A DNA stretch of 55,666 nucleotides from a virus. The translations under genes and the position numbers were made by a program. Positions 5,075 to 25,270 of this stretch are shown here, piece by piece (within the stretch, counting starts at the first letter, position 1; every line of letters begins with the position of its first letter). The stretch lies in IMG/VR virus record IMGVR_UViG_3300027509_000003, one strand, 5' to 3'. The notes beneath the pieces are model-generated. The model ran no database searches, was not told the origin of the DNA, and saw nothing but the letters and a program-made list of their open reading frames with translations.

Positions 5075-5295
5075 TATTGTTTCACCCCCTCCGACGATGC
5101 TTTGTCGAGCGGACCGATACCCGTTGGCATGTCCGGGTCGAGATCGAGCAGATCGTCGATTGCTGACCAATACTCTGACTCGTCGGTGTAGACGACTGCC
5201 CCATCCGGTGGCGGCGCGGCGTGCTCTCCTGGCCCGCCGGAACTGAACCCGGACCCGTCCGCGGCGTGGTGAATCCACCACACAATGCAGGTCAT
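5074..5295 (-). CDS. Hypothetical acidic protein
   Basis: 73 aa, with an ATGA overlap upstream and a TAATG overlap downstream. Confidence 0.55.
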   Translation of the reverse strand: MTCIVWWIHHAADGSGFSSGGPGEHAAPPPDGAVVYTDESEYWSAIDDLLDLDPDMPTGIGPLDKASSEGVKQ

Positions 5296-5939
5296 ACAAT
5301 CACCGGCCTTTTCGGGATAGTCAGAATCGATGCCATGGGCTCCGCTATAGCGACCGAAGCGAACGGGGCGCCGCCGGCGCCGCCGGCGACGGCTCTGGCC
5401 CGATAGCGAACTTGCGCTTCGATCGATTCGTTCTTATTGACAGGACCGCACCAGGTAGCCGCGCCGATGTACTGGGACTGGGTTCTTAGCGGCGTGGTGT
5501 TTCGTTCGTCAAAGTTCGCTCGGCCTGCAGAAAAGTTCGTGAACGCTGTTGACCCGTTGACCACTACCCGATAGTCAGCAATCAACGCCAGCCACGTGTT
5601 GCGTTGGCGCATCAGAGCCCACCCGAAAGACCAGTCCACGTCGGCGATGGCATCGCAGTCAGCGGTCATCGCCGTGATCGTTCTCCAAGTTCCGGCGATG
5701 TCTTGGAGCGCTCCGCCCGGCGGCAACGTCTGAGAGCCGTACACCCGGATTTGGTTCCGGGCGCAGCCCGGTTCGCAGAACCGGAGAATGACACCAACAA
5801 CACCGTCTTCGCATACCAGCTGAAACAGGGCGCCGTCATCTGGTGCTTGTTGTTGGGGTACAGACCCGCAAAGAACTCCGGGCGTGATGGGATTGTTCCC
5901 GCAGTTCGGGCACGGCGCGGCCAACGATTCAGCGACCAT
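5292..5939 (-). CDS. Cys-containing tail-tip/receptor-binding candidate
   Basis: 215 aa from ATG 5939 (TGATG overlap with the upstream stop). Last large gene of the tail block. 8 Cys by count. Confidence 0.45.
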   Translation of the reverse strand: MVAESLAAPCPNCGNNPITPGVLCGSVPQQQAPDDGALFQLVCEDGVVGVILRFCEPGCARNQIRVYGSQTLPPGGALQDIAGTWRTITAMTADCDAIADVDWSFGWALMRQRNTWLALIADYRVVVNGSTAFTNFSAGRANFDERNTTPLRTQSQYIGAATWCGPVNKNESIEAQVRYRARAVAGGAGGAPFASVAIAEPMASILTIPKRPVIV

Positions 5940-6778
5940 CAGAACCCCGTCGGCGTATTCCACACGACCTGTTGCTGGGTGGATTCCCAACCATCAAAAC
6001 AGATCGTGAAGTTACCGAGTTGGCTTTGCCCATTCACGCTTCCCGGTTCCACAGTGGTGGATTGCACCCAGGACAGGGCGGTGGTCATCGTCACAGACTG
6101 GAATGCCGGCACAATGAAGCACGGCCCGCGGATTTCGCGTGACTCGACGTGGGTCCCTACCCTGCTTGTCAGGATCCGGCAGTTCGGGTCCATCACCGCG
6201 AAGTCATTGAGCGAGAACCCAGCAGACGTCGAAACGGTGTTGTTCGCTGTCAAGATGTACGGAAACGCTGAGGCTTCCCATTCTGCTTCTTTGATATTGA
6301 TTGATGCTCGCAACACCAGGGGGTAGCACTGCGCTTCGATCGTGATCGTTTCCGTTTTGATCGGGATCGTACCCTCCTTCAATTCCACGGTCTGAGTTGC
6401 CCCGCCAGGGCTGCACAGACACACCGGCCGCGGCGCACGGTCCGCCCACAAGCACCAGGTCCCGTCCGGTTGCCGGAACCGGTACAGGCCGTGCTGGCAT
6501 GCAATCCGCTGGTTGGTCGTCTGGTCGAAAGCGCTTGGCGGGCCGTTGCTGGCCAACCCGCCGCCGGCATCGTCAGGTAGGTACGTGGCGAAATGATCGC
6601 AGATCGCTACGTCCAGGCCTGCTTCGCTGTAGTCCAGGCACCCGTCAGCGCCGGTAGTCGGAGGCTTCTCCCGGAGGACACCGTCATCGCACAGCCGCAC
6701 GAACGCAGTCGTTGTGTCAGCCGCGTCGCCAGGTTTAAGCCCGATCGTCGCTGATTCTTGCAAAGGGAAAACGGCCAT
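5939..6778 (-). CDS. Cys-rich tail-tip/fibre candidate
   Basis: 279 aa, 11 Cys by count. Third gene after the tape measure. Confidence 0.45.
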   Translation of the reverse strand: MAVFPLQESATIGLKPGDAADTTTAFVRLCDDGVLREKPPTTGADGCLDYSEAGLDVAICDHFATYLPDDAGGGLASNGPPSAFDQTTNQRIACQHGLYRFRQPDGTWCLWADRAPRPVCLCSPGGATQTVELKEGTIPIKTETITIEAQCYPLVLRASINIKEAEWEASAFPYILTANNTVSTSAGFSLNDFAVMDPNCRILTSRVGTHVESREIRGPCFIVPAFQSVTMTTALSWVQSTTVEPGSVNGQSQLGNFTICFDGWESTQQQVVWNTPTGF

Positions 6779-6804
6779 GAGGATCTAAGTATTGCCCACC
6801 GGCG

Positions 6805-7869
6805 TTACGGGGTGATTCTGGGCGGCCCGAGAACAGGGGACATCACCCGCATCTCGCAAGCGACTTCGGCGAACACCATCCCAGCAACGCGCATCCACCC
6901 ATCCACCCGCCCGCACCAGGTCTCCACGTCGACGTTGACGTGCAACCCCGGCCGGATCTCATTCAGGTCGAGCGGGAACCGGCACAAGCTCGCTGTCTTA
7001 GCGTCGCCACCAGTCAAGAAATCGCCGGCGCAATCCCCGGTCGATGATCGCAACGCGACACCATCAGCCTCGACCTGGGTGTCAACGTCGGAAACAATCG
7101 GGTCCCCATCAGACGAAGCGATCCATTCGATCAGCCCGCCGCACTCCGGGAGCACCGCGTCTTTCGTGTCTATCGGGAACGACCCGAGGCGTTGACCTCC
7201 TCCGCCGGCCGGGTCATACGGCACCCCGGTCAGTGTCCGGGCGGCGAACAGATCCTGGACCAAACCCAAAGACCGGCCGTCATCAGACCACGCCTGATTC
7301 GTGAGCGTCACGTCAGCCCGACCGTAATCATGCGGGCCGATCCACATTTCGTCGCCGATCACGAACCCTCGCACCAGCCCATCAAGCTGCTTCATTGCAG
7401 CCGAAATGTACCCGCCGATCTCATCAGGCGAACCCGCAGACACGCCCGCATCGTTGACGTTGAAAGTCTCAATGCCGGTCGGGTCGCATGCGCCGGCAGC
7501 CTCCATCAGCAAAAGGAACTGCTGGGCGGCGTCGCGGGACCCGGTGATCAACGTCCGGAGCAACCGCAGTTGATAGCGGGCCCACAAGGACCGGTCCGAT
7601 GCTGTCGCGTCGATCTTGCCGGGTTTCGAAGCGTCCCACTTCGTGAGCGGCCCCGCGTACAGGTCTTCCCCGCCGACGGTGACCACGAGCTCATCCCGGC
7701 CGACGACCGGAGACGCAGGGCAGCACCCCCACCCCAAACCTTCATAGTTCAGGTTCGCTTCGGCTACGCCGTCCTCGACCCATTCCCACGTCGTCGATCG
7801 GCCCTCTCCTGGCAGCAACGTTTCATCGCCCGTGAACCGGTTCACGATCCGCACCTCGGCACCGCTCAC
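6805..7869 (-). CDS. Minor tail protein (tail-tip, Tal position)
   Basis: 354 aa from GTG 7869 (GTGA overlap, GGAG 8 nt upstream). The ORF is open to 7893. Second gene after the tape measure. Confidence 0.5.
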   Translation of the reverse strand: MSGAEVRIVNRFTGDETLLPGEGRSTTWEWVEDGVAEANLNYEGLGWGCCPASPVVGRDELVVTVGGEDLYAGPLTKWDASKPGKIDATASDRSLWARYQLRLLRTLITGSRDAAQQFLLLMEAAGACDPTGIETFNVNDAGVSAGSPDEIGGYISAAMKQLDGLVRGFVIGDEMWIGPHDYGRADVTLTNQAWSDDGRSLGLVQDLFAARTLTGVPYDPAGGGGQRLGSFPIDTKDAVLPECGGLIEWIASSDGDPIVSDVDTQVEADGVALRSSTGDCAGDFLTGGDAKTASLCRFPLDLNEIRPGLHVNVDVETWCGRVDGWMRVAGMVFAEVACEMRVMSPVLGPPRITP

Positions 7870-9281
7870 GTGGAGTACTCCGGAGCGAGCCACGCCTCCA
7901 TGGTCAAATCAGTCAATTCGCGGAACGGCCGCGGGTCGCATGACGTTTGAATCGCTATCCAATACTGGTCGCCGCAAGTCATCGCACCGCAAGACTCGAC
8001 GCTCAGAGCCCCAGTCCTGCATTCGCCGGTGACGCACCTCGAGCGGACCGTCCCTTCCCGGCCGTCCCAGGTCAACACTTCATAGCTATCGAGCCGTGGG
8101 ATCTCCAACGCGTGAACCGGTTTCACATTGCAGTAGAACGCGTTCCCAGCAACGGTCATAGGGTCCGGGATCCCCGGTGACGCCTTCCACACCAAGACCC
8201 GCACATTGTCCACCGGGTCCTGACCGTTACGCAGTTCAACAATTGGGACCGCAACAATCGACGCCGGCAGCGACGGCGTCAACAGGCTCATCGTCCGCCA
8301 CGATGCCGGCTGTCGGAACCCGCCGCGTGACTGGATCCGGCCGCCGCGCCGCACCCGGGCCCGGGCCGGGGAACACGCCCCAGTCGGATGGTTCCCGGCA
8401 CACACGGTGCACGCCGGATCGGTGATGATGATCCGACCGACGTGGCAACCCGGAGGCGGACCATCTTTGCAGTCAGTGACAACGCTTTCTTCGAGCAGCG
8501 GCAAGTCCATCTGGGTGAGTTCCCCAACCCGGATCGGGTTCCCGTGGGTCTGACCGGACCGCACCGAAAACCGGATCACGATCCGCCGACTGAAACAGTT
8601 CGGGATCACCCGATCAGTGAGCGCGTCGATCGACTCGAACCGTACGCCGGCGAGATCACGGACGCCGTCGTCATACATCATCCGGGCCGGCGGCGGATCT
8701 CCCAACGGCGCCGCAATGTAGTGGTCATCGTCGCCGAGCGTCAGAACCGGCCGGGCCGGGTCCAGCGCGGGTGCCGCCGCTGGGGTGGTGTCCTCGCAAG
8801 GGCAATGCCCCAACCCGCGCAACCGGAAATCGTTGCACCGCAAGCACTCAGACCGGTACACCCGGTTCGCCCAATTGAGCCACGCTTCCAACCCGCGTTC
8901 AGACGTAGCGAACACGGTCCCTGTCTGAGTGAGGTATGGCCGCAGTGGCGTGTCGGCCTCAGCGATCCGGGAAGACGCCCCGTATTCGAGGATGGTCCCG
9001 AGGCCATCGTTCGGGTTGTACGCATCCGGGAGAAACCCGAGCGCTTCCCACGTCGCCGGGTTCATCGGGTCCACCCACGGCGCTCCGTCACTCAGCGGCG
9101 TGTCATAGGCACCGGTGTTGTAGGTCCAGCACCCGCACCCGGTCGGGCAGTTCGATCTGATCCGAACATGGTTTGGCAGCAAGTTCTTGATGTAGGTGCA
9201 TGTGCGCGCCCGGTTCAATACCTCGGTGCACACCCCGGAGCACTGGTCATGCATCTGCAGGTACCCGTGGAAGTTACGCAT
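7866..9281 (-). CDS. Minor tail protein (distal-tail-protein position), Cys-rich
   Basis: 471 aa. The start overlaps the tape-measure stop by 8 nt. 22 Cys by count. Confidence 0.5.
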   Translation of the reverse strand: MRNFHGYLQMHDQCSGVCTEVLNRARTCTYIKNLLPNHVRIRSNCPTGCGCWTYNTGAYDTPLSDGAPWVDPMNPATWEALGFLPDAYNPNDGLGTILEYGASSRIAEADTPLRPYLTQTGTVFATSERGLEAWLNWANRVYRSECLRCNDFRLRGLGHCPCEDTTPAAAPALDPARPVLTLGDDDHYIAAPLGDPPPARMMYDDGVRDLAGVRFESIDALTDRVIPNCFSRRIVIRFSVRSGQTHGNPIRVGELTQMDLPLLEESVVTDCKDGPPPGCHVGRIIITDPACTVCAGNHPTGACSPARARVRRGGRIQSRGGFRQPASWRTMSLLTPSLPASIVAVPIVELRNGQDPVDNVRVLVWKASPGIPDPMTVAGNAFYCNVKPVHALEIPRLDSYEVLTWDGREGTVRSRCVTGECRTGALSVESCGAMTCGDQYWIAIQTSCDPRPFRELTDLTMEAWLAPEYST

Positions 9282-12270
9282 TTCGAGCTCTCGCTATCTG
9301 GCGGCGGACAGCTGCGCCGACCTGGGTCCCCCACAACGGGGCCGGCCCGGCCGGCGGCGGGCCGGTCACGTTCACGATCACGTCGCCGATCGACTGGTCA
9401 ACACTCGACGGTTCACCGCTGCCGGCAGCAGCCGGTTCCGGCGGGGCGATCATCGCGGCGAGTTCCCGGAAGAACCCCCCGTCGTCGAATTTCGCGAGGA
9501 GCCCAGCGTTATGACGGAACGGTTGCCCAGCGTTCAAAGCGAGTTCTTCGTTGTTGTTTTCCGCCAGTCGGAACACGGACCCGCCCGGTCGGGGCTTCAC
9601 GATGCCGCCCAACGCCAACCCCGGGATGCGACTGGCCAAACCGCCGATGCCGTCAACAACTCCGGACACTGACGGGATCCGCCCAATGGCCGATATCAAA
9701 GATTCGACGGCGCCGATCGCTGATTGGATCGGACTTGTCAGCGTGCTGACCGCTGACGCTACAGACCCGAACACGCTGGAAGCGATCGACCCGAGAGTCG
9801 AGAACGGCGGCCCGGTGAACACGCTGGTCACGGCGCTGATAGCTGACGTGACCCCGGACCGCAGAATCCCCAACGCAGCCGATGTCGCCGAGTTCACCGT
9901 CGACCACGCCGAACTGACCGCAGAAGTCACCGTTGAAAATGCGGACGTGATCGTTGATGTCAGCGCTGACAACGCTGCGCTCACCGCTCCGGTAACAGCG
10001 GACCACGCCGCTGAGGTAGCACCGGTCACTGCGGACCACGCCGAACTGACCGTGGATGTCACCGCCGACAACGCTGCGGAGATTGTGGACGTCACCGATG
10101 ACCACGCAGCCGATGTCGCTCCGGTCACCGCTGACCACCCCGCCGAAATAGCGCCGGTCACGCCGCTGATCCATCCGGAAACGGTGCCGCTGATAGACGC
10201 CGTCGCTGATGACACCGTGCCGCTGATGGCCTCCCACACCCCGGAGAACAAGACGGCAAGCTCTCCGAACACCGGACCGAAAAGGTTACCCAGGATCTCA
10301 AACAGGCCAGTGATGCGGATGACCACGATGTCGATCAGACCGGTGATGATCCCCTGCAGCGAAGTCCACGCCCCGGAGAAGTCACCGGTGATGAGCTGCG
10401 CCACCAGGTTGATGACATCAATGATGACACCGAACGCCGGTCCGACCTGCTCGATCAGTATTCCGATGAACGGGATGACCACATCAGTGACCAGGAACTG
10501 CAGCGCCGCGGTGACCGCCTCAACGTCGAGACGTTGAAACGCCGCTGACACCTCCGCTATTGCCGCCTGCAACGCTGGAGCGACATCAGTGGCGAATGAT
10601 TCCACGATGGTGCCCAGGACAGGCCCCAGAACCTCAGCGAATTGTGACAGGATCGGCCCGACAGACTCGAACGCCGTTTGGAACACCGCAGATATTTGCG
10701 GTCCGAGACCGGAAAGAGACTCAGCGAACGGGCTGAGTACTTCGCCGACGGCAGTGAACGCTGACGACAACCCGGCGCTGATCTGCGGTGCCACACTCAA
10801 CGCCAAATCGAGGCCTGCAGCAACAAACGGTGTGATGGCCTCAGCGGCGCCGAGGAACGCTATCTGGGCTTGGGACTTGATCCTGTCGAACGTCCGGCCG
10901 AGGGTGTCGTCCATGACTTCATAGGCGGTGCCGGTAGCGCCGGCGGTCTCACCGAACTCATCCAGCACACCTTGAAAATCCTCAGCGTTCTTGCCGGTCA
11001 ACGCCAGGATTGCCTGGCCAGCTTCGACCGACCCGAACAGTTCATTTGTGCCGACGCCGGCGTCAGCCGCGGCGGTCTCGAGGATGTCGAGCGCTCCGGC
11101 GAGGTCACCGCCGTTGGCGATGAACTGCGGGAACGTTTCACCCGATACTTCCTGAAACGCTTCATTGACTGATGAACCGGAGTCCTGCAGCTCAGCCAGC
11201 GCGCCTTTCAGCTGGGTGGTCGCCACCGACGTCGGTGTACCGAGCGATGTGATCTGGGCGAGCGCCGCGGCAACGTCATCGAACTCGACGCCCAACGACG
11301 ACGCGATCGGGGCCACATCAAAGATGGTGGATGACAGCTGATTGAAGTCCGTTTTACCGAGCCTGACAGCGGTGAAAAGCGCGTCGCTCGCCTCAGCAGT
11401 CGACAAGACATCTGACCCGTAGGCGTTCGTGACCGACGTCAACCCGTCGACCGCGGTCTCGAGATCCGATACGCCGGCGATCGCCGCTTCGTTTGCCTGC
11501 CCCAAGAAATCGAAAACGCTGTCCGTCGGCACCCCGGCAGAAATGGCCTGATAGAGCGCCGGGAGCACATCGTTGGTGGTCAGCCCTGCCTCCAGGGCGA
11601 ACGCTTTGATCTCATCACCGAGCGCGCCGATCCCGGCGTTATCGAGCCCGGGCAACAAGGTGGTCACTTCCGCCAACCCGGTCTCGAACGAAGCGAACGA
11701 CGTGACCAGAGTCCCGGCAGTAGCGGCGAGGCCGGCCAACCCGGCGGCGGGTCCCGCTATCGGCAGAGACCCGAGGGCGCCGCCTAGGCCGGTGACTGAT
11801 GTCCCGAGGCTGGCGATCTGGCCGGCGGCGTCCTGGATGCCGGCGGTGTTCACATCAACGTCGACGCTGACCCGTTGGCTCAGCCTCGATATCAGGCTTT
11901 CCGCTTCCCGCACGTCACCGGTCGCTACCTCGACCGCGACATCGACGGTGTCAGACAGACCGGCGATCAGACCTTCCGCCGCGGCGAGGTCCCCAACGCC
12001 GACTTCGACGCCGACGTCAACGGTGCCGCCCAGGTCAGCGATCAGACCTTCCGCAGCGGCAAGGTCACCAACGGCCACCTCCGGGCTGATGAGCGGGCTC
12101 AGCCCTTCAATGGCAGCGAGGTCAGACACCAACGAATCCAGGCCGGTGGAGTCAACGTCAATGCCGACGCTGACGGACCCGTTCAAGCTGGCGATCAGGC
12201 CTTCCAACGCCGTGAGCTCGTTAATGGCGCTGTCAGCTCTGATCTCGATTTCTACAACGCGGGGGGCCAT
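9274..12270 (-). CDS. Tail tape measure protein
   Basis: 998 aa, rich in Ala/Gly/Ser/Val, with no Cys. TP901-type core segments (TGLAEVTTLLPG, AISAGVPTDS, DALFTAVRLGKTDF). Contains internal repeats and follows the G/GT chaperones. Confidence 0.9.
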   Translation of the reverse strand: MAPRVVEIEIRADSAINELTALEGLIASLNGSVSVGIDVDSTGLDSLVSDLAAIEGLSPLISPEVAVGDLAAAEGLIADLGGTVDVGVEVGVGDLAAAEGLIAGLSDTVDVAVEVATGDVREAESLISRLSQRVSVDVDVNTAGIQDAAGQIASLGTSVTGLGGALGSLPIAGPAAGLAGLAATAGTLVTSFASFETGLAEVTTLLPGLDNAGIGALGDEIKAFALEAGLTTNDVLPALYQAISAGVPTDSVFDFLGQANEAAIAGVSDLETAVDGLTSVTNAYGSDVLSTAEASDALFTAVRLGKTDFNQLSSTIFDVAPIASSLGVEFDDVAAALAQITSLGTPTSVATTQLKGALAELQDSGSSVNEAFQEVSGETFPQFIANGGDLAGALDILETAAADAGVGTNELFGSVEAGQAILALTGKNAEDFQGVLDEFGETAGATGTAYEVMDDTLGRTFDRIKSQAQIAFLGAAEAITPFVAAGLDLALSVAPQISAGLSSAFTAVGEVLSPFAESLSGLGPQISAVFQTAFESVGPILSQFAEVLGPVLGTIVESFATDVAPALQAAIAEVSAAFQRLDVEAVTAALQFLVTDVVIPFIGILIEQVGPAFGVIIDVINLVAQLITGDFSGAWTSLQGIITGLIDIVVIRITGLFEILGNLFGPVFGELAVLFSGVWEAISGTVSSATASISGTVSGWISGVTGAISAGWSAVTGATSAAWSSVTSTISAALSAVTSTVSSAWSAVTGATSAAWSAVTGAVSAALSALTSTITSAFSTVTSAVSSAWSTVNSATSAALGILRSGVTSAISAVTSVFTGPPFSTLGSIASSVFGSVASAVSTLTSPIQSAIGAVESLISAIGRIPSVSGVVDGIGGLASRIPGLALGGIVKPRPGGSVFRLAENNNEELALNAGQPFRHNAGLLAKFDDGGFFRELAAMIAPPEPAAAGSGEPSSVDQSIGDVIVNVTGPPPAGPAPLWGTQVGAAVRRQIARARNA
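9817..10230 (-). repeat. In-frame 11-residue (33-nt) tandem repeats within the tape measure
   Basis: About 12 units of the type SAAWSAVTGAT / SAALSAVTSTV / SSAWSTVNSAT (aa ~681-818), with W, L or F recurring every 11 residues. Confidence 0.8.
11851..12075 (-). repeat. N-terminal repeats within the tape measure
   Basis: VGDLAAAEGLIADLGGTVDVGVEV is repeated as VGDLAAAEGLIAGLSDTVDVAVEV and again as TGDVREAESLISRLSQRVSVDVDV (aa ~66-140). Confidence 0.75.
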
Positions 12271-12276
12271 GGGCTC

Positions 12277-13001: not shown

Positions 13002-13020
13002 GTTACCCGTCGCGCCGGGG

Positions 13021-13674: not shown

Positions 13675-13675
13675 G

Positions 13676-16728: not shown

Positions 16729-16730
16729 GT

Positions 16731-17380: not shown

Positions 17381-18024
17381 GACTGGCCTCCAGTGACGAT
17401 TGTGCGGGGGACCGTGACGAGCGCAGCTTGGGACCGTAGCCCTACATACGCTCGGGACCATGGCGTGTCCTGGGGGGCGCCTTCGCGGAGGCGGTGCCGG
17501 ACCTGCACCCCGATGCTCGCCGAAGCGGGAATGTTGAGCAGATGCTGCGTGTCAACGCCGCCGTGCTCCCATTCGTACTGCAGAGGTTCGGTAGAGAGCG
17601 CCTCAGTGCGCTCGTCGCTGTACGGGTACGCCCGGTTCGTGTGCGTGGCCACGACAGTGCCGTTGACCAGATAGCGGGCGTCGATCAGGTGATAGATCCG
17701 AGTGTCACGGGCGTAGTGAAGCAGCGTCCCGAGGTCCGTGGTGGCCAGGCCGTCGGTGATGCAAGCGGCCGTGGTGAACGTTGCGATGGTGCGCCAGTCC
17801 ACGATCGTGGTCCACGCTGCAGGGATTCGGGTCCCGGTGGTGATTCCCAGCCAGCCGGTCGGGTTCGACGAGTGAGTCCACGGGCCGGTGCAGGTCAGCA
17901 TCGGCTGATGCCATGATTCGCCGGGGGCCAGAACGTACGGGTCGCATCCTTCGACGATCTCCTTGCACTGGACTTTGCCGTCGTCTGTGACGCACCACAC
18001 GAGACGGGTCCGCGCTGCGGTCAT
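17377..18024 (-). CDS. Virion-module protein of unknown function
   Basis: 215 aa, ATGA overlaps at both ends, 5 Cys by count. Confidence 0.55.
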   Translation of the reverse strand: MTAARTRLVWCVTDDGKVQCKEIVEGCDPYVLAPGESWHQPMLTCTGPWTHSSNPTGWLGITTGTRIPAAWTTIVDWRTIATFTTAACITDGLATTDLGTLLHYARDTRIYHLIDARYLVNGTVVATHTNRAYPYSDERTEALSTEPLQYEWEHGGVDTQHLLNIPASASIGVQVRHRLREGAPQDTPWSRAYVGLRSQAALVTVPRTIVTGGQS

Positions 18025-19787: not shown

Positions 19788-19833
19788 GCTGATCCTTGCA
19801 GCTTGGGGACCCCGGACACCTTGCCCATTGAGA

Positions 19834-20202
19834 TCATTCGTCCGATTCGTTGGCCGCGTTGATGGCCGCGACCAACTGAGAGCGGTTGCCGGTGGCCTTC
19901 ACGTCCAGGCGCTTCGCTTCGGTGACCAGTTCGTCCTTCGGCATGTCCTCGGTAAACACACGACGGATCGAAGGGCCGAGTACAGGCGGGCCGAAGTCAA
20001 CCGGGGCGCGATCTTCTGGCAACGGGACGTCCAGCGCTGCCAGTTCGTCGGCGTCGGTGATGACCTTCGCCCAAGTGCTGTATGCAGCAACCTCGGCGTC
20101 GAACTCGTCCGGTTCGACATCCATGAAGTTCGTTACGATCTCGTCGGCGGGTCGGCCCATGGCCTCGTATCCCCTTGGGAATTGGATAGCGATGGTGCTC
20201 AT
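19834..20202 (-). CDS. Acidic protein with a C-terminal HeH/SAP motif
   Basis: 122 aa from ATG 20202 (ATGA overlap). Contains MPKDELVTEAKRLDVKATGNRSQLVAAINAA. Confidence 0.55.
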   Translation of the reverse strand: MSTIAIQFPRGYEAMGRPADEIVTNFMDVEPDEFDAEVAAYSTWAKVITDADELAALDVPLPEDRAPVDFGPPVLGPSIRRVFTEDMPKDELVTEAKRLDVKATGNRSQLVAAINAANESDE

Positions 20203-21047
20203 TGGGCACACTTCCTTTCACGGATAAATAGGATGACCATCGACGCCGCGTAGAACTCGACAGAAGAACCAGCGGTGAGGCTGTTGACTGTTATTTCCTG
20301 ATCGACGGTGAACACGAAAGTGGAGCCGCCCGGCTGCGTCGAGGTGATCAGCATGTATGTCGGCGTCGATTCGGTGTCGCCCGATTCGAGATCGGGTGCG
20401 ACCACCGTGTCGCCGTTGCCGTTCATCGGGGAGGCGGGAACACCGCCGCCAATCGAGTACACGGACCGGAAAGCGATGCGGCCGTTATCGGCACTTGATT
20501 TGGCACCGAAACCTCGTGCCCCGGGGTTCACGAAAGCGACGAAGCGGCCTCCGCACTTCGGGACCGTGAACGACCGTGTGAGCGTTTGCCCGATCAGTCC
20601 TTCGTCGCCGGGTCCGATCTCGATTACAGCAGTATTTGAGTTGGGGCCACCGTCGAAAGATGCGTTGTGGCACTCGTCGGTGACGACGCCTTTGACGCTC
20701 GTGAAGGTTCGCTTGATCGCCTTGTTGTCGGTCGTGCATTCGACAGTTGCGATTGCGTCGTCAGGCAGGCAGCCAGCCGACAGGACTGTCCCGTCTGGGT
20801 TGAGGATCGTGATGACCCGAGCGTCAGCGGGTGCGCCTTCTGCGCCAGTGCCGGTGTAGTCGAGACCTGCGATGGGGCCGACCGTGATCTGGACATCGTC
20901 CGAGATCGGGTTGCCATCAGCGTCCAACAGGTTGCATGCCTGAGCGAACGCGACGAACTGCGCCTTCGTGATCGGGTCACCAGCGGTGCCCGTCTGCGGG
21001 TAGACGTTCGTGGTCTTCGTTTGCGGTGGTTGTGGGCAGGCCGTCAT
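20199..21047 (-). CDS. Cys-containing virion-module protein
   Basis: 282 aa, 7 Cys by count. Its LLDADGNPISDD motif is shared with 18021..19787. Confidence 0.55.
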   Translation of the reverse strand: MTACPQPPQTKTTNVYPQTGTAGDPITKAQFVAFAQACNLLDADGNPISDDVQITVGPIAGLDYTGTGAEGAPADARVITILNPDGTVLSAGCLPDDAIATVECTTDNKAIKRTFTSVKGVVTDECHNASFDGGPNSNTAVIEIGPGDEGLIGQTLTRSFTVPKCGGRFVAFVNPGARGFGAKSSADNGRIAFRSVYSIGGGVPASPMNGNGDTVVAPDLESGDTESTPTYMLITSTQPGGSTFVFTVDQEITVNSLTAGSSVEFYAASMVILFIRERKCAQ

Positions 21048-21048
21048 G

Positions 21049-21909
21049 TCAGCATTCCTCTTCTTCGATGGGGACTTCGGTCCCGATTACTCCGGTGACC
21101 GATCCGGCCCCGTCAATGGTCACTGCTTCGCCGTTACCACAGAAGGTGGCCTCGCATCCCGGCTGCACATACTCGGTGTACTCGTTGCCGTCCACGCCGA
21201 CCGTGGTCACGGCCACGGCCTGGTCCTCGACTTCGCAGTCAGGATCAACCGACGCTTTCACCGTGACACTGCACACGTTCTCCAGGATCAGTGGCGCGGT
21301 GCCGTCCATGACACCGTCGACAAGCGGTTTGGTGTTCCCGTCGAGTGGCACACCGACGATCTGGGTGGTCGCCGGTGGGCCGCCGATGTTGACGCCGCAC
21401 GGTGCCAACACGTAATCGACTCCTTCGGTCAGACCTTCGATCGGACTGTCGATCGGCGTGAGTCCGCCGTTCTGAGTCCAGCTCCGCGGTTTGATCGTGC
21501 CGTCGCCGGCCATGACCACTTCGAACTCGCCGAGCTTGCAGGTGAAATACCCTTCGTTGTCGCCGCTGCCTGGGGTGAGGACTTGGACGCAGCGCCGGAT
21601 CAGGTCGCAAACACCGAGCTGCGCGCCTTCGGGGATCGTGTCGGACTTGGTGAACCCGTCGTCTGACAGGTACCCGACCGGGATCATTGCGCCGTCTGGG
21701 CCCTTAATGAAGCAGACCGAGATCTGATCGCAACCGTTCAAACAGTAGTCCCGCAGCACGGGCGTGCTCTGCACGGTGACGTTGATGTCTCCCAGTTCGG
21801 CGATCGCTTCCGCGATGGCCTCACCGAGTCCTTCGATGTCGAAGTCAACTTCGATCGTGGTTGGTGGGCAGTAGAGGTCATCGGCCGCTGTCGGTTTGTT
21901 GACGCTCAT
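21049..21909 (-). CDS. Cys-rich virion-module protein
   Basis: 286 aa from ATG 21909 (ATGA overlap). 13 Cys by count. Ends IEEEEC. Confidence 0.55.
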   Translation of the reverse strand: MSVNKPTAADDLYCPPTTIEVDFDIEGLGEAIAEAIAELGDINVTVQSTPVLRDYCLNGCDQISVCFIKGPDGAMIPVGYLSDDGFTKSDTIPEGAQLGVCDLIRRCVQVLTPGSGDNEGYFTCKLGEFEVVMAGDGTIKPRSWTQNGGLTPIDSPIEGLTEGVDYVLAPCGVNIGGPPATTQIVGVPLDGNTKPLVDGVMDGTAPLILENVCSVTVKASVDPDCEVEDQAVAVTTVGVDGNEYTEYVQPGCEATFCGNGEAVTIDGAGSVTGVIGTEVPIEEEEC

Positions 21910-23060
21910 TGCTTGTCCCCCTCTACCGCAGGAAGGGGGCACCCGCCCAGGATCGTCGGCGCAGCCGCAGCGAAACACGGGTTCCACACGCCAAGCGTGT
22001 GGATCTCCCACACCGCATCAACCATGTTGTCCAAAAGTTCAATGCTCGCCGCTGGGCTCACCAGGTTCGCGCGGTTCACCATTACGGGGTCAGACACGGC
22101 CGCAAGGATCGGGCCGGTAGCCCACGTGTACCCGTTGGCCACACCCGCCGCCGGCGGCGGGATCGCCTGCGGGGTCGCCTCAGGAGGGCACCCAGCAGTC
22201 AAACATTCAGCGGCCGGTACCACCGGATCTCCGTTGAAATCGACGCCAACACCGCCGTCCAGGTTCAGCCAATGCCCGGCAGCGTCAGACGGTCCGCCTT
22301 CGAGCTCGACCAGCCCGTTGCACTTCCGAAGCTTGTATACGCCGTGGCCAGGGACATGAGACACGCCGCGGCCGGCTTTGTTTTTGATGCGCCATGCGTC
22401 CATCCCGGCCAGCGCGTCGTCGATCTCGAGGTACCCGGAAGCCAGGTTCATCGCGTAGTCACGAATCGCAGGGCTTCGGGTGTAGTGCCCGGTGAACAGT
22501 TCCCGGGTCATCATGTCCGAAGCGCACCGCAACAACCGTTCGCGTGCTTCAACAGCCAACCCCTCCGGGGTGTTGCACGCCAGGTCGCCGGACGCCGGCA
22601 CGTACCACGTGCCGGGCCGGAACTCCACGGTTACGGTCTTGATCGGGGCGGCGATCTTCGCTATCGGCCACGCCGGACCTTCAGCAGGTTGGACGCTGGG
22701 GTGCCATTGCACCAACCCCAGGTTGTTCCTGGTTCGGGCGGGGACTTTCACGCCGCCATCGTCGATGCACTCGACAACGGTTGGCCAACCGTTGATCGAC
22801 TCGCAACATACGACGGTCAACCGGACGCCGTTGCGCCAGTTCCGGTTCGGGACCGCGTCGCCAGGGGTCGGCGCCCAAACGTACGGGTTGGCGCGCAAGG
22901 CGTTCGCGTTGGCCACCGCGGCGGCTTCGCGCTCCACGGCGTCTTCGATCTCGTTGACGCTGCGCAGCTGCGGGATCTGGTCCAGCCGGAACGTGGCGTC
23001 AGTGATCAGCGAAAACAGGCGGGAAAGTTTCCCGTCGCCGACCAGCTGCAGAGCGTGCAT
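21906..23060 (-). CDS. Capsid-associated protein, second major-capsid candidate
   Basis: 384 aa, the first gene after the 702-aa head protein. The C-terminal LLDNMVDAVWEIHTLGVWNPCFAAA loosely resembles the C-terminal pattern of HK97-family capsid proteins. 10 Cys by count. Confidence 0.35.
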   Translation of the reverse strand: MHALQLVGDGKLSRLFSLITDATFRLDQIPQLRSVNEIEDAVEREAAAVANANALRANPYVWAPTPGDAVPNRNWRNGVRLTVVCCESINGWPTVVECIDDGGVKVPARTRNNLGLVQWHPSVQPAEGPAWPIAKIAAPIKTVTVEFRPGTWYVPASGDLACNTPEGLAVEARERLLRCASDMMTRELFTGHYTRSPAIRDYAMNLASGYLEIDDALAGMDAWRIKNKAGRGVSHVPGHGVYKLRKCNGLVELEGGPSDAAGHWLNLDGGVGVDFNGDPVVPAAECLTAGCPPEATPQAIPPPAAGVANGYTWATGPILAAVSDPVMVNRANLVSPAASIELLDNMVDAVWEIHTLGVWNPCFAAAAPTILGGCPLPAVEGDKQ

Positions 23061-23095
23061 CAGTGCCTTTCAGGTTTGCGTGGTGAGCCCACATT

Positions 23096-23137
23096 CCCGA
23101 GAGCAGGCAACCATGGTGGTGGTTACCTGCCCTCGGG
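23096..23137 (-). terminator. 18-bp imperfect stem-loop after the 702-aa head gene (attenuator-like)
   Basis: The minus strand reads CCCGAGGGCAGGTAACCA-CCACCA-TGGTTGCCTGCTCTCGGG (two G-U pairs) and starts about 25 nt after the stop at 23162. No U-tract follows. Confidence 0.5.
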
Positions 23138-23161
23138 CTTATAGGCCGTGGTCACGGGGTA

Positions 23162-25270
23162 TCAGGTCGGGCAGGTCGCCAATGGGGCCATACAACCAAT
23201 ACGGGCGCCGGTCCACATCAGGTTCTTCAGGTTGATGGTGAACGCCTTGTGGCAGCCGTCTTTCCCGAGACCCTCATGGGTTTCCTGGAACATCCCGAAG
23301 ACCCAGTTGCTCTTCGCGTAGGCCGGGGTGACCTGAGCGCCGAACCCGATCGATGGGCGGCGCAGAGCAAAGAAGTCTGAGCGGTCATAGATCCGGATGC
23401 GGTAGTCGCACCCGAACTTCCACGCGGCGTATTCCGTCGCGTTCGCCGCGCCGAGGCCGCTGTTCTCTTCGGTGGGGAATGAAGGAGTCGGGAACGGCGA
23501 CGTTTCATCGCTGGCCAGGTCCAGCATTGACTTGATGGTGAACGTTGCGTCACCCTCGAACGCTGATGTGAGCAGCGAAGCGAGTTCTTCGCGGCCTTCG
23601 TGGCACGCACGTCGGTTGTCCCAGCCGAGGATCTTGGCCATGCCGGCGGGGATAGCGACGGTGTAGTCGCCGGCGGTGGTCCGGTCGTTGAACTGACCGG
23701 AACACGTGAGCGTCTGCACGATCTCTTCGAGGACCGGGATAGCTCCGAGCTGTTCGCCGGCAGCGTTCGCGAACCCGCACGCCGGGTCGGCTACATCGAT
23801 GTTGACCCAGTGGGAGAATGAATCGATCTGAGCGAGGCGGTACTTGTTCCGCTCACGGATGAACGCGGTTTGCAATGACCGGCGGGCGGCGCTGATCAAC
23901 TGCTCGTTGCACGCCTCCAATTCTTCCGGCCATTCCATGCACGCAGCGATCGAAAGCATCCGAACCTTGGACTTCGGTACGCATCCGGGCACGTAGCACT
24001 GCTTCTGCAGCGCGAGCATCGCGGCGTGAAGTTCCGCCTTCGGTTCGCCGTCAGCAATCGACCCATACCAGGCGTCTCGAGCTTCGCAAAACTTTTTGCG
24101 GCGCTCGTCATCCCATACGGTCATGCCCTGGGTGACCAGCGGCAGTTCCCGGTAGTACTCGAGCTCGCACGTTGGAGCGGAGTACTCCTCGAATTCGTCG
24201 GCCAGCGGATCAAACATGGTCCGGCAATCCGGGATTTCGGTTCGCTGCGTTGGGACCACAGGGCAGTCACCGGTCGCTGACGCCTGGACACGGGCCCGGG
24301 CCCGGTCAGCGTTGGTGATGCCGTTGGCGTGGACGATCTGGCGGGACTGCGCCAGGTCGATGGTGTTGGCCGGGTTCACGCCGGGAGCGTCGATCCGGTA
24401 CGAACCGAACTTCACGCCGGCCGGCATCAGCCCGCTGGACTGGTTCCCGGCGTTGTTCGACAGGTAGCTCGAGAACTGTTCAGCGATGTGGGCGTCGGTG
24501 ATGTCCTGCCCGACGGTGATGTGTTCTTCCGCGCCGTTCGTGAACGCTGACGCGGCGACCATGCGGGCAGCGCGGCGTGGTTGCGCTGGGACCGGGGCCG
24601 GGGCCGGCCCGCCGCCACCGTTGGCGGGTGGGGCGCCGCTGATGAGAGATGCGGGGTCACGGTTGAACGTGGTGCCACCGGACCAGTTGACCGGGGCGCG
24701 TACCCCGTTGGCGAGCACTGCCACAGGCGTGACTACGCCGTCTTCGCCAACGACCAGGTCGATATCGACGCTGGTCACCGGCGGATCAGCTGGCGCGTTC
24801 GGGTCCGCGGGCGGGTCGGCTGGCGGAGCGTTCGGGTCCGCGGGCGGCGCCGGCGGAGAGTTGGCAGCGTTCGGGTCCGCGGGCGGGTCGGCTGGCGGAG
24901 CGTTCGGGTCCGCGGGCGGCGCCGGCGGCGGGTCGGCTGGCGGATCGGGCAAGGCGTTCATCCGGGCGATGCGCTTGTCGGCTGCCTCGCTCATCACCAG
25001 GTAGGGGATCAGCGCCTGTTCTGATGCGTCCATATCCGCATCCAAGCCCGTCGTCTGGGCCGTGGACAACAGCGTCTGAAACGCGGTGCGGGCTTCGGTC
25101 ACCCGCGCCTGGAGCGCTGGTAGCTCAATGGTCGATGTTTCTGCTACCAGGGCGTCCATCTCGTGGACGGTGGCGCCTTCGGGTGCGGGGCCTTCAAACG
25201 GGACCAGGCTGGCCGGGCCGTCGGCAGTGTTGATGGTGTAGAGCACACCATCAATCAGGACATAGATCAT
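23162..25270 (-). CDS. Large head protein: scaffold-like coiled coil, Pro-rich linker and a C-terminal domain of several hundred aa (major capsid candidate)
   Basis: 702 aa. The helical N-terminus (EMDALVAETSTIELPALQARVTEARTAFQTLL) resembles a delta or scaffolding domain. The (PPADPNA)n linker spans aa 108-165. It sits downstream of the protease and scaffold-like genes and is followed by a strong hairpin. Confidence 0.45.
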   Translation of the reverse strand: MIYVLIDGVLYTINTADGPASLVPFEGPAPEGATVHEMDALVAETSTIELPALQARVTEARTAFQTLLSTAQTTGLDADMDASEQALIPYLVMSEAADKRIARMNALPDPPADPPPAPPADPNAPPADPPADPNAANSPPAPPADPNAPPADPPADPNAPADPPVTSVDIDLVVGEDGVVTPVAVLANGVRAPVNWSGGTTFNRDPASLISGAPPANGGGGPAPAPVPAQPRRAARMVAASAFTNGAEEHITVGQDITDAHIAEQFSSYLSNNAGNQSSGLMPAGVKFGSYRIDAPGVNPANTIDLAQSRQIVHANGITNADRARARVQASATGDCPVVPTQRTEIPDCRTMFDPLADEFEEYSAPTCELEYYRELPLVTQGMTVWDDERRKKFCEARDAWYGSIADGEPKAELHAAMLALQKQCYVPGCVPKSKVRMLSIAACMEWPEELEACNEQLISAARRSLQTAFIRERNKYRLAQIDSFSHWVNIDVADPACGFANAAGEQLGAIPVLEEIVQTLTCSGQFNDRTTAGDYTVAIPAGMAKILGWDNRRACHEGREELASLLTSAFEGDATFTIKSMLDLASDETSPFPTPSFPTEENSGLGAANATEYAAWKFGCDYRIRIYDRSDFFALRRPSIGFGAQVTPAYAKSNWVFGMFQETHEGLGKDGCHKAFTINLKNLMWTGARIGCMAPLATCPT
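24776..24949 (-). repeat. In-frame tandem repeats encoding PPADPNAPPADPPADPNA
   Basis: The plus strand shows near-identical gcgttcgggtccgcgggcgg(g/c).. units repeated four times. They encode aa 108-165 of the 702-aa protein. Confidence 0.8.

What the first reader, a model, noticed from the sequence alone, without database searches (positions are those of the whole stretch)
5292..25270. Outer virion proteins are massively cysteine-enriched (possible disulfide- or metal-crosslinked particle)
These are my direct counts. The tube candidate 13021..13674 has 16 Cys in 217 aa. The adaptor-like protein 13990..14949 has 16 in 319. 15037..15789 has 14 in 250, 18021..19787 has 22 in 588 and 21049..21909 has 13 in 286. 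The tip protein 7866..9281 has 22 in 471 and 5939..6778 has 11 in 279. In contrast the 998-aa tape measure has none, the large terminase has 1, the portal 3 and MuF 4. The bias is therefore specific to proteins expected on the outside of the capsid and tail, not a genome-wide codon effect. Phage particles assembled in the cytoplasm are normally Cys-poor. I do not know of a described actinophage with a whole set of exposed structural proteins at roughly 4-7 percent Cys, and the pattern suggests a covalently stapled or metal-bound virion.
Basis: partly seen in the sequence, partly recalled or inferred. Interest (0 to 1): 0.75.

Follow-up and report, generated by a model that had tools for sequence, protein, structure and literature searches.

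The report
Hyper-cysteine virion of an actinophage
This complete 55.5-kb phage genome encodes shell-position, tube and tail-tip proteins with 2-7% cysteine at conserved positions, some shared with a mycobacteriophage whose particle was recently shown to be held together by disulfide bonds, so this particle is probably disulfide-stapled too, with about twice the cysteine density of any described case.

Summary
The counts are exact and the reading frames are real. Fourteen proteins in the minus-strand virion module hold 174 Cys in 4,760 aa (3.7%; up to 7.4%). The rest of the genome has 1.17%. Eight interleaved proteins have none, including the 998-aa tape measure and the chaperone-position proteins.

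The pattern is not compositional. Six syntenic metagenomic relatives with GC from 45% to 67% show the same two-class pattern, up to 8.3% Cys. Cys is the most conserved residue type among them (62% versus about 24% for the rest).

Profile comparison and gene order place the tail module in the "cluster-B-type" actinophage lineage (Mycobacterium phage Bernardo, Rhodococcus ReqiPine5, Arthrobacter SilentRX). The Cys positions of that lineage match the disulfide cysteines reported in a 2026 cryo-EM preprint on M. abscessus phage Jabs (about 1,700 disulfides across the particle). Window tube C22, C64 and C83 align with Jabs C19, C60 and C79, which form the links between tube rings.

CxxC motifs are not enriched and His is depleted, which argues against metal sites as the main role.

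Verdict: a real, extreme variant of a now-known kind. No bond was observed here.

The parts
23162..25270 (-). 702-aa protein at the major-capsid position. Residues 1-335 are Cys-free and include a Pro-rich repeat linker. The C-terminal 367 aa hold all 15 Cys.
   Evidence: Counts. First Cys is at residue 336; P = 6e-5 for that by chance. It lies where the 565-675-aa MCP lies in Bernardo, ReqiPine5, Sour and SilentRX; in the four Mycobacteriales-host phages all MCP Cys fall in the C-terminal part. No sequence or profile homology to those MCPs. The AF2 model was unusable. The capsid role is inferred from gene order only.
21906..23060 (-). 384-aa protein with 10 Cys, at the position of the second (penton) capsid protein of Jabs-type phages.
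   Evidence: Gene order only. Nothing beyond this phage's own copy in the 5.8-billion-protein search. tblastn against phages found nothing. hhalign was negative. AF2 pLDDT was 35.
21049..21909 (-). 286-aa protein, 13 Cys (4.5%), role unknown.
   Evidence: No PHROG or Pfam family.
20199..21047 (-). 282-aa protein, 7 Cys (2.5%), role unknown.
18021..19787 (-). 588-aa protein, 22 Cys (3.7%), role unknown. It lies in the accessory or fibre hot spot upstream of the tube gene.
   Evidence: In relatives L019 and L020 this stretch carries pectate-lyase, DUF1996 and He_PIG proteins.
17377..18024 (-). 215-aa protein, 5 Cys. Its C-terminal domain is paralogous to that of 5292-5963.
   Evidence: BLASTP 30% identity over 135 aa, E = 3e-7.
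16156..16728 (-). 190-aa protein, 7 Cys (3.7%), role unknown.
15037..15789 (-). 250-aa probable major tail (tube) protein, 14 Cys (5.6%). C22, C64 and C83 align with Jabs tube C19, C60 and C79.
   Evidence: hhalign against cluster-B-type MTPs gave 85% (E = 6e-6) and 74% (E = 3e-5). It sits directly upstream of the adaptor, as in Bernardo and Jabs. Cys alignment. 61 of 84 Cys comparisons are conserved in six relatives, against 26% for other residues. tblastn against phages was negative.
13990..14949 (-). 319-aa head-to-tail adaptor, 16 Cys, with a conserved cluster C76-C77-C78...C85..C88.C90.C92.C94.C96.
   Evidence: PHROG 783, E = 1e-10. hhalign 99.2% to cluster-B-type adaptors. 90 homologues in 1.84 billion representatives, many with 4-8.5% Cys and conserved Cys columns.
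13676..13993 (-). 105-aa HK97-gp10/DUF646-like tail component, 0 Cys.
   Evidence: hhalign 82% to ReqiPine5 gp25 and TPA2 gp31, the latter annotated DUF646. Its orthologues in relatives are also nearly Cys-free.
13021..13674 (-). 217-aa protein, 16 Cys (7.4%), the most Cys-dense. It sits at the tail-terminator position, but its identity is unproven.
   Evidence: Orthologues in six relatives have 3.5-8.1% Cys, and 60 of 95 Cys comparisons are conserved. hhalign to cluster-B gp24 (the Jabs TT position) was not significant at 6-8%.
12277..13001 (-). Two genes at the tail-assembly-chaperone position (170 aa and 68 aa), 0 Cys.
   Evidence: Position between the terminator-position gene and the tape measure. 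Cys-free or nearly so in all relatives.
9274..12270 (-). 998-aa tape measure protein, 0 Cys.
   Evidence: PHROG 991, E = 7e-80. The tape measures of relatives have 0-2 Cys in 695-1,557 aa.
7866..9281 (-). 471-aa probable distal tail protein (Dit), 22 Cys (4.7%).
   Evidence: It is the first gene after the tape measure. BLASTP to Arthrobacter SilentRX gp32, the post-tape-measure minor tail protein, gave E = 2e-10. hhalign to cluster-B gp29 plus SilentRX gp32 gave 79.5%, E = 1.5e-5, over 321 columns. Jabs Dit is 478 aa.
6805..7869 (-). 354-aa probable Tal (baseplate hub), 8 Cys.
   Evidence: hhalign 96-98% to cluster-B gp30 and SilentRX gp33. Jabs Tal is 345 aa.
5939..6778 (-). 279-aa tail-tip protein, 11 Cys, role unknown.
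   Evidence: Weak orthology to L017_18675. Its Cys are poorly conserved.
5292..5963 (-). 223-aa tail-tip protein, 8 Cys. Its C-terminal domain is shared with 17377-18024. Possible receptor-binding protein.
15782..16135 (-). One of four small acidic Cys-free proteins in the block (the others are 16731-17024, 17021-17380 and 19834-20202).

Best explanation
The window is the complete genome of an uncultured siphophage, probably of an actinobacterium. Its tail module (tube, adaptor, Dit, Tal) is a distant member of the 'cluster-B-type' actinophage lineage. By matching protein lengths and Cys positions, that lineage also includes M. abscessus phage Jabs.

In Jabs, a few cysteines per subunit form disulfides within and between subunits. 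They link capsomers, successive tube rings, terminator to tube, tube to Dit, and fibres to Dit.

The window phage and its metagenomic relatives appear to keep core cross-link positions and have added many more, 10-22 Cys per protein. The extra ones most likely form further loop-stapling and inter-subunit disulfides.

Assembly would happen with reduced thiols in the reducing cytoplasm. Oxidation at or after lysis would then lock the particle, as the Jabs authors propose.

Proteins that leave the particle, are ejected through the tube, or never enter it are kept Cys-free. These are the tape measure, the chaperone-position proteins and the N-terminal domain of the capsid-position protein (the equivalent Jabs segment appears to be cleaved off).

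Shown here: the counts, the conservation, the homology and the alignment of positions. Inferred: that the bonds form, when they form, and what the extra cysteines do.
For: (1) The two-class Cys pattern is highly non-random.
(2) Six syntenic relatives with GC from 0.45 to 0.67 show the same pattern protein by protein.
(3) Across the tube, adaptor, 217-aa, Dit and Tal families, window Cys are identical in relatives in 259 of 415 comparisons (62%). Other residues average about 24%, Gly and Pro 39%, Trp 31% (Fisher p = 2e-58).
(4) Homology to cluster-B-type phages: adaptor 99.2%, Tal 98.3%, Dit 79.5% plus BLASTP 2e-10, tube 74-85%, gp10-like 82%. Gene order is the same.
(5) Cys positions in cluster-B-type proteins (Bernardo; for tube C234/C264, ReqiPine5, TPA2 and Sour, because Bernardo lacks them) reproduce the Jabs disulfide cysteines. 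Tube 20/61/80/132/234/264 versus Jabs 19/60/79/131/234/264. Thirteen Dit positions match at an offset of +6 to +8. MCP 262/272/339/555 versus 271/281/347/563. MCP2 99 versus 97. gp24 92 versus TT 93 (paper).
(6) Window tube C22, C64 and C83 align with Jabs C19, C60 and C79. Arthrobacter SilentRX tube has only two Cys, at 64 and 83.
(7) Cys density for tube + adaptor + terminator-position + Dit + Tal rises along the lineage: SilentRX 1.4%, Bernardo 2.1%, window 4.7%, L023 5.8%.
(8) CxxC, CxC and CC motifs are not in excess over shuffles, and His is 1.4% versus 2.8%.
(9) All 15 Cys of the 702-aa protein lie after residue 336. This parallels Jabs MCPh, where residues 1-266 are absent from the map, and Bernardo, where all MCP Cys lie after residue 262.
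Against: No disulfide was observed, and no Cys-Cys distance could be computed. The structure tool returns no coordinates, and both single-sequence models failed (pLDDT 35 and 39).

Its link to cluster-B-type phages rests on matching lengths and Cys numbering.

Tube and Dit homology is only moderate (74-85%). The capsid-position proteins and the 217-aa protein have no detectable homology to Jabs-type proteins, so capsid cross-linking rests on gene order alone.

Jabs C131 has no aligned Cys in the window tube.

Cys counts are even in only 8 of 14 proteins. That is compatible with inter-chain bonds but gives no positive support.

Seven Cys-rich proteins (286, 282, 588, 215, 190, 279 and 223 aa) are not shown to be virion components.

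Jabs reaches about 1,700 bonds with roughly 2% Cys, so the excess here has no demonstrated role.

The Jabs report is a preprint.
Confidence: 0.68

Rival explanations
1. Most cysteines coordinate metals (structural Zn sites, or Fe-S clusters like the one in lambda tail-tip protein gpL), so the particle is metal-stabilised rather than disulfide-linked.
For: The adaptor carries a dense conserved cluster (C76-78, C85, C88, C90, C92, C94, C96) shared with cultured adaptors. The corresponding stretch of the Jabs adaptor, residues 68-102, was not resolved by cryo-EM, so its chemistry is unknown. Local CxxC and CxC pairs occur in Dit and in the 217-aa protein. The lambda gpL Fe-S cluster is known from the literature (my own knowledge, not checked here).
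Against: Over the 14 proteins, CxxC (7 observed, 6.1 expected), CxC (10 versus 6.4), CC (6 versus 6.8) and gaps of 5 or less (36 versus 30.7) do not exceed shuffles. The median Cys-Cys gap is 15.5 residues. His is half the genomic level. In the homologous Jabs-type tube, Dit and MCP, the matching Cys positions form disulfides.
Confidence: 0.12
2. The cysteines are conserved for folding or stability within single subunits only (intramolecular disulfides or buried thiols). There would be no covalent network between subunits, so the particle is not 'stapled'.
For: Many gaps of 9-40 residues fit local loop staples. In Jabs several Dit and tube bonds are intramolecular. Cys turnover between relatives is high in Dit and Tal, at 36-51% conserved.
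Against: The best-conserved tube positions, C64 and C83, are the only two Cys in SilentRX tube, and they correspond to the Jabs inter-ring bond C60-C79. Odd Cys counts in 6 of 14 proteins leave unpaired Cys available for inter-chain bonds.
Confidence: 0.15
3. The pattern is an artefact: wrong reading frames in a GC-rich genome, a compositional effect, or ORFs that are not virion genes.
For: The genome is 63% GC and has many spurious long ORFs. Seven Cys-rich proteins have no family assignment.
Against: GC3 is 0.72-0.83 in the called frames. Three independent pipelines call the same genes. Orthologues in phages with 45-67% GC show the same enrichment. Adaptor, Tal, Dit and tube are homologous to annotated virion proteins.
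Confidence: 0.03

Closest known systems
Mycobacterium abscessus siphophage Jabs (Cambillau et al., bioRxiv 10.64898/2026.07.24.740622)
   Same: It is a siphophage of an actinobacterium with the same gene order and protein sizes: large MCP with a removable N-terminal part, second MCP, tube, adaptor, terminator, Dit of about 475 aa and Tal of about 350 aa. Window tube Cys align with Jabs C19, C60 and C79. The adaptor family shares a Cys cluster.
   Different: The sequences are so diverged that only profile methods link them, through cultured cluster-B-type phages. The capsid-position and terminator-position proteins show no detectable homology. Cys density is about twice as high (4.7% versus about 2.1% in the Bernardo-type equivalents). 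Jabs C131 has no aligned counterpart. There are extra Cys-rich proteins between the capsid and tube genes. No structure or biochemistry exists for the window phage.
Cluster-B-type actinophage virion module (Mycobacterium phage Bernardo, Rhodococcus ReqiPine5, Tsukamurella TPA2, Gordonia Sour, Arthrobacter SilentRX)
   Same: Adaptor, Tal, Dit, tube and the gp10-like protein are homologous by profile comparison. Gene order from ParB to Tal is shared. Cys concentrates in the tube, adaptor, terminator-position protein and Dit. Tape measure and chaperones have no Cys or almost none.
   Different: Cultured members have 1.4-2.7% Cys in these five proteins, against 4.7% here. The MuF/protease fusion of the cultured phages appears split in the window (a 594-aa and a 356-aa gene, separated by a 273-aa gene). 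No nucleotide similarity, and little direct protein similarity, was found.
Agrobacterium myophage Milano (PMC10811340, PMC10491603)
   Same: A disulfide network runs through capsid, neck, sheath and baseplate. Structural proteins are Cys-enriched (2.1%) relative to the rest of the proteome (1.4% overall).
   Different: It has a contractile tail, an unrelated host and unrelated proteins. Its bonds must be reduced before the tail can contract. Its Cys density is lower.
Disulfide-linked PF08813 tail tubes (PMC13576161) and cyanophage Pam3 fibre-baseplate disulfides (PMC9942802)
   Same: Tube rings, or fibres and baseplate, are covalently linked through a few conserved Cys. In PF08813 the trait is confined to one branch of the family.
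   Different: Only two Cys per tube subunit, or six bonds per wedge. The protein families are different, and the enrichment does not extend across the whole particle.
HK97 capsid 'chainmail' and oxidative maturation of polyoma- and papillomavirus capsids (my own knowledge, not checked here)
   Same: Subunits are covalently cross-linked after assembly, which stabilises the particle. In the eukaryotic viruses the disulfides form after release into an oxidising medium.
   Different: HK97 uses Lys-Asn isopeptide bonds. The eukaryotic viruses are unrelated.

Membership tests
Jabs/cluster-B-type disulfide-cross-linked siphophage virion module | Gene order: portal, MuF/protease, large MCP with N-terminal domain, second MCP, ..., tube, adaptor, terminator, chaperones, tape measure, Dit, Tal | tested here: met
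   Window order compared with Bernardo, ReqiPine5, TPA2, Sour and SilentRX and with Jabs ORF sizes. The window has extra genes between the MCP-position and tube genes, and the order of the gp10-like and terminator-position genes differs from Bernardo (where the 173-aa gene comes first).
Jabs/cluster-B-type disulfide-cross-linked siphophage virion module | Sequence homology of adaptor and Tal | tested here: met
   hhalign 99.2% (adaptor) and 96-98% (Tal). PHROG 783. tblastn with metagenomic adaptor homologues P0010 and P0012 hits annotated head-to-tail adaptors.
Jabs/cluster-B-type disulfide-cross-linked siphophage virion module | Sequence homology of tube (MTP) and Dit | tested here: inconclusive
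   Tube 74-85%, E about 1e-5. Dit 79.5%, plus BLASTP 2e-10 to SilentRX gp32 over the N-terminal 137 aa only. tblastn with the tube protein found nothing.
Jabs/cluster-B-type disulfide-cross-linked siphophage virion module | Sequence homology of the two capsid proteins and the tail terminator | tested here: not met
   hhalign probabilities of 8% or less. tblastn found no match. Single-sequence AF2 models were unusable.
Jabs/cluster-B-type disulfide-cross-linked siphophage virion module | Cys at the tube inter-ring cross-link positions (Jabs C60-C79 and C131-C19) | tested here: inconclusive
   Window C64, C83 and C22 align with Jabs C60, C79 and C19 by way of Bernardo C62, C81 and C21. No Cys aligns with C131; the nearest is the conserved C145.
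Jabs/cluster-B-type disulfide-cross-linked siphophage virion module | Disulfide bonds actually present in the particle | not testable with these tools
   This needs particles or recombinant assemblies, or model coordinates.
Metal-binding Cys sites (Zn ribbon or knuckle; Fe-S as in lambda gpL) | Excess of CxxC or CxC pairs, with accompanying His | tested here: not met
   Motif counts equal shuffle expectation, and His is 1.4% versus 2.8%. No Pfam metal-binding domain was found. The adaptor cluster remains a local exception.
Virus-encoded disulfide-formation pathway (poxvirus/NCLDV Erv-type oxidase, thioredoxin-fold or DsbA-type proteins) | A thiol oxidoreductase gene in the genome | tested here: not met
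   Pfam scans of 40 window proteins found no such domain. They covered nearly all non-structural proteins with two or more Cys. Reading all translations by eye found none either. The remaining small proteins, all Cys-free or with a single Cys, were not scanned.
Actinobacteriophage (host assignment) | Actinobacteria-specific genes and homologues restricted to actinophages | tested here: met
   WhiB (PF02467) scores 23.7 bits against a cut-off of 23.6. Adaptor-family hits are only in Mycobacterium, Gordonia, Rhodococcus, Tsukamurella, Nocardia, Skermania, Arthrobacter and Curtobacterium phages. The Dit hits were all in Arthrobacter, Curtobacterium and Streptomyces phages. The host genus is unknown. 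No tRNA and no prophage relative in GTDB genomes.

The most novel reading that the evidence does not exclude
The window phage and its relatives form an undescribed clade of tailed phages with the highest Cys density yet seen in a virion module: 4.5-5.8% over tube, adaptor, terminator-position protein, Dit and Tal, and up to 48 Cys in one Dit-position protein. Nearly every loop and interface would be disulfide-stapled. The conserved adaptor Cys cluster, unresolved in Jabs, could be a metal or redox-sensing site. Infectivity would then depend on an oxidative maturation step after lysis, and possibly on local reduction at the host surface.
Probability: 0.3. Interest if true: 0.75.

Novelty: new variant of a known kind. 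Interest (0 to 1): 0.55.

Why it matters
Disulfide networks that span a whole phage particle were recognised only in 2023-2026 (Milano, Jabs). It is still an open question how and when they form for a particle assembled in a reducing cytoplasm.

This lineage offers a natural graded series, from 2 Cys in a tube protein (SilentRX) to 14-15 (window, L017, L022), and from 1.4% to 5.8% Cys over five tail proteins. The core cross-link positions appear to be kept throughout. Such a series makes it possible to test what extra cross-links buy in stability, host range or environmental persistence. It also gives design rules for very stable protein nanotubes and capsids.

The work also shows that per-protein Cys content can flag such particles directly in metagenomes.

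Tried and rejected
Searches that found nothing or only distant hits:
- Megablast of the 20-kb block against 50,697 phage records: no match.
- tblastn of the 702-aa, 384-aa, adaptor and tube proteins against phages: no match.
- The 5.8-billion-protein word-index search found only this phage's own copies for 13021-13674 and 21906-23060. For the portal it found two distant relatives whose contigs are too short to help.
- IMG/VR scans with the adaptor, the portal and alignment A2 found nothing. Tape-measure hits there were distant phages with ordinary Cys content.
- Scans of JGI metagenome contigs and GTDB genomes with alignments found nothing. Alignments A1 and A3 were too diverse to search with.

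Structure:
- The two single-sequence AF2 models were unusable, with pLDDT 35 and 39, so no fold search was run.
- PDB sequence searches with the adaptor, tube and 217-aa profiles gave nothing relevant. The filamin hit comes from an N-terminal extension that the window protein lacks.

Other dead ends:
- The other assemblies of this phage are 99.95-100% identical, so they say nothing about Cys conservation.
- Sample accessions were not found in the paper library, so the environment is unknown.

Ideas rejected:
- Wrong-frame artefact (GC3 and independent gene calls).
- Base-composition effect (same pattern at 45-67% GC).
- A repeated 'C..DDG' hairpin motif as a common module (only scattered matches).
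- Cys-count parity as evidence for disulfides (8 even, 6 odd; uninformative).
- A phage-encoded oxidoreductase (none found).
- A thermophile-type oxidising cytoplasm (nothing in the data points to it; not tested).

Full report
**Observation.** All genes in 5292-25270 lie on the minus strand. GC3 is 0.72-0.83 in their frames, a codon-usage gene caller selects them, and independent JGI, ENA and Logan annotations of the same phage call the same proteins. Every Cys count in the finding is reproduced exactly.

The block holds 174 Cys in 6,556 aa (2.65%), against 127 in 10,844 aa (1.17%) in the rest of the genome (Fisher p = 1e-12). The distribution has two classes. Fourteen proteins carry 2.1-7.4% Cys (3.66% overall). 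Eight proteins, 1,796 aa in all, carry none. The Cys-free set comprises the tape measure, the two chaperone-position proteins, a gp10-like 105-aa protein and four small acidic proteins. That absence has P = 6e-10 even at the background rate. Portal (0.5%), MuF (0.7%) and TerL (0.2%) are low.

For scale, the authors of the disulfide-rich phage Milano report 2.1% Cys in its structural proteins, and 0.9% and 0.7% for the T4 and A511 proteomes (PMC10811340). Five unrelated siphophage loci fetched through tape-measure similarity show about 0-1.5% in most structural ORFs.

**What the window is.** The two ends share an exact 127-bp overlap, so this is a complete, circularly assembled genome of 55,539 bp. 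The same phage was assembled at 99.95-100% identity from four other samples.

It has a TerL, portal, MuF, tape measure and adaptor, but no nucleotide match to 50,697 phage records. TerL is at most 38% identical to anything there.

A WhiB-family protein points to an actinobacterial host. So does the fact that homologues of its adaptor and Dit occur only in phages of Mycobacterium, Gordonia, Rhodococcus, Tsukamurella, Nocardia, Skermania, Arthrobacter, Curtobacterium and Streptomyces. The host genus and the environment are unknown.

**Relatives.** Word-index searches found only the phage's own copies of the 217-aa and 384-aa proteins. An exhaustive phmmer search of 1.84 billion representatives with the adaptor found 90 homologues. 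Many of these are 220-300 aa long with 4-8.5% Cys and strongly conserved Cys columns.

Their contigs (L017, L019-L023) share the window's gene order from the tube gene to the tail tip. GC content ranges from 0.45 to 0.67, and every one shows the same two-class pattern. The tube-position protein has 3.5-6.2% Cys, the adaptor 4.3-8.3%, the ~200-aa protein 3.5-8.1% and the post-tape-measure protein 3.0-5.8% (48 Cys in L023). Tape measures, chaperones and the gp10-like protein have 0 or close to 0. The enrichment is therefore a trait of a clade and not a base-composition effect.

Over the five alignable families, a window Cys is identical in a relative in 259 of 415 comparisons (62%). Other residues average about 24%, Gly and Pro reach 39% and Trp 31% (p = 2e-58). 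By family the figures are: tube 73%, adaptor 78%, 217-aa 63%, Dit 51% and Tal 36%. A conserved core therefore sits alongside lineage-specific gain and loss.

**Identity of the proteins.** Profile-profile comparison with families built from cultured phages (Bernardo, ReqiPine5, TPA2, Sour, SilentRX) gave the following:
- Adaptor: 99.2%.
- 6805-7869 against gp30/gp33 (Tal position): 96-98%.
- 7866-9281 against gp29/gp32 (Dit position): 79.5%, plus BLASTP 2e-10 to SilentRX gp32.
- 15037-15789 against the major tail proteins: 74-85% (E about 1e-5).
- The 105-aa protein against DUF646/gp10-like: 82%.

Gene order agrees. In these phages and in Jabs the tube gene lies upstream of the adaptor gene, with at most one inserted gene between them. 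The tube is therefore most likely 15037-15789.

The 702-aa and 384-aa proteins lie where the large and small capsid proteins lie, but no homology could be shown, and the single-sequence AF2 models failed. Seven further Cys-rich proteins remain unassigned. In relatives the stretch before the tube gene carries pectate-lyase, DUF1996 and Ig-like proteins, so these may be fibres or accessory enzymes.

**Link to a solved case.** A 2026 preprint (10.64898/2026.07.24.740622) reports the cryo-EM structure of M. abscessus siphophage Jabs. It describes two capsid proteins and about 1,700 disulfides joining capsomers, terminator to tube, successive tube rings, tube to Dit, Dit subunits and fibres.

However, the reported protein lengths and disulfide Cys numbers match the cultured cluster-B-type proteins almost one for one:
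- Tube: Cys 20/61/80/132/234/264-267 against Jabs 19/60/79/131/234/264 (Bernardo has only the first four).
- Dit: thirteen Bernardo Dit cysteines sit at +6 to +8 from the Jabs Dit list.
- MCP: 262/272/339/555 against 271/281/347/563.
- Second MCP: C99 against C97.
- gp24: C92 against TT C93.

The Jabs virion module therefore belongs to this lineage. This is an inference, because Jabs itself is described as Cluster MabL-like (PMC12993973).

In both the MAFFT and the hhalign alignments, window tube C22, C64 and C83 fall on the columns of Jabs C19, C60 and C79. The Arthrobacter phage SilentRX tube protein has only two Cys, at 64 and 83. That marks the inter-ring C60-C79 pair as the conserved core. 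Jabs C131 has no aligned counterpart in the window.

Cys density over tube, adaptor, terminator-position protein, Dit and Tal rises along the lineage: 1.4% (SilentRX), 2.1-2.7% (Bernardo, ReqiPine5, Sour, TPA2), 2.9-3.8% (L019, L020), 4.5-5.1% (L021, window, L022, L017) and 5.8% (L023).

**Disulfide or metal?** Cys spacing shows no excess of CxxC, CxC, CC or short gaps over within-protein shuffles. The median gap is 15.5 residues, and His in the Cys-rich proteins is half the genomic level. These features argue against Zn- or Fe-S-type sites as the general explanation.

The adaptor cluster is the exception. It is dense, it is conserved out to cultured phages, and it maps to residues 68-102 of the Jabs adaptor, which were not resolved in the map. 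Its chemistry is open.

All 15 Cys of the 702-aa protein lie after residue 336 (P = 6e-5). Likewise, in Bernardo, ReqiPine5, TPA2 and Sour all MCP Cys lie in the C-terminal part, and Jabs MCPh residues 1-266 are missing from the map. This fits selection for Cys only in what stays in the mature shell.

No thioredoxin-fold, Dsb, Erv or VKOR protein was found. Oxidation would then be spontaneous or host-assisted at or after lysis, as the Jabs authors suggest.

**Verdict.** The disulfide-stapling interpretation is well supported by homology and conservation, but it has not been demonstrated. The concept is no longer new (Milano 2023/24; Jabs 2026; PF08813 tubes 2026; Pam3 2023). What is new is an uncultured clade with about twice the Cys density of any described case, set within a graded evolutionary series.

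The main weaknesses are these. No coordinates or biochemistry are available. Tube and Dit homology is only moderate. The capsid proteins are unassigned. The cysteines beyond the Jabs-type core have no demonstrated role.

Noticed in passing
window 1-127 and 55540-55666: The two ends share an exact 127-bp direct overlap, so the contig is a circular, complete genome of 55,539 bp. An independent ENA assembly of the same phage is 55,608 bp.
   Followed up: partly
window 24778-24928: A 72-nt tandem repeat (2.1 copies) encodes the Pro-rich PADPNAPPADP linker of the 702-aa protein. The ENA copy of the gene encodes 678 aa, exactly one unit fewer, so the linker length varies in the population.
   Followed up: partly
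window 52353-52703 (-) and 46131-46532 (-): The first is a WhiB-family protein (Pfam 23.7 bits, cut-off 23.6) with the CxxC...C...GVWGG pattern. The second has a WhiB-like Cys pattern by eye but no Pfam hit.
   Followed up: partly
window 17377-18024 (-) and 5292-5963 (-): A protein in the head-tail region and a tail-tip protein share a C-terminal domain of about 130 aa (30% identity, E = 3e-7). It may be a duplicated fibre or receptor-binding domain.
   Followed up: no
window 34128-34316 (-) and 44292-44780 (+): A 62-aa ORF near TerL and the C-terminus of a 162-aa plus-strand ORF are 53% identical over 58 aa (E = 2e-16), a duplicated small domain on opposite strands.
   Followed up: no
window 19834-20202, 17021-17380, 15782-16135, 27741-28562 (-): These small or acidic proteins (the first three Cys-free; 27741-28562 has one Cys) carry helix-extended-helix (SAP/Rho_N-like) motifs by eye. 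Such motifs are often DNA-binding, and the role of these proteins inside the structural module is unknown.
   Followed up: no
L019 1-9210; L020 1137-9192: In lower-GC relatives the genes just upstream of the tube gene encode pectate-lyase/beta-helix, CLIPPER_2, DUF1996 and He_PIG (Ig-like) proteins. This looks like an accessory-enzyme or fibre hot spot in an unusual position.
   Followed up: no
window 13990-14949 (-), residues 76-96: The adaptor's conserved Cys cluster corresponds to residues 68-102 of the Jabs adaptor, which gave no interpretable cryo-EM density. The best-conserved Cys feature of the family therefore has unknown structure and chemistry.
   Followed up: partly
proteins P0012, P0013, P0015 and similar (adaptor homologues of about 365 aa): A subgroup of adaptor homologues with only about 2% Cys has a roughly 100-aa N-terminal extension that matches filamin-type Ig repeats (PDB profile search, E = 1e-6).
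   Followed up: no
window 32143-33594 (-) and 37353-38843 (-): There are two ParB-like proteins. One lies between TerL and the portal. The other is fused to a DNA methyltransferase (PHROG 498, E = 7e-61). Bernardo also has ParB-like genes next to its TerL.
   Followed up: no
window 3977-4771 (-), 4776-5074 (-): By eye, this looks like an amidase-type endolysin (HHFGD...GHGDVGSTACPG), with two small membrane proteins directly after the tail genes. Pfam gave no hit for the 232-aa version of the ORF.
   Followed up: partly
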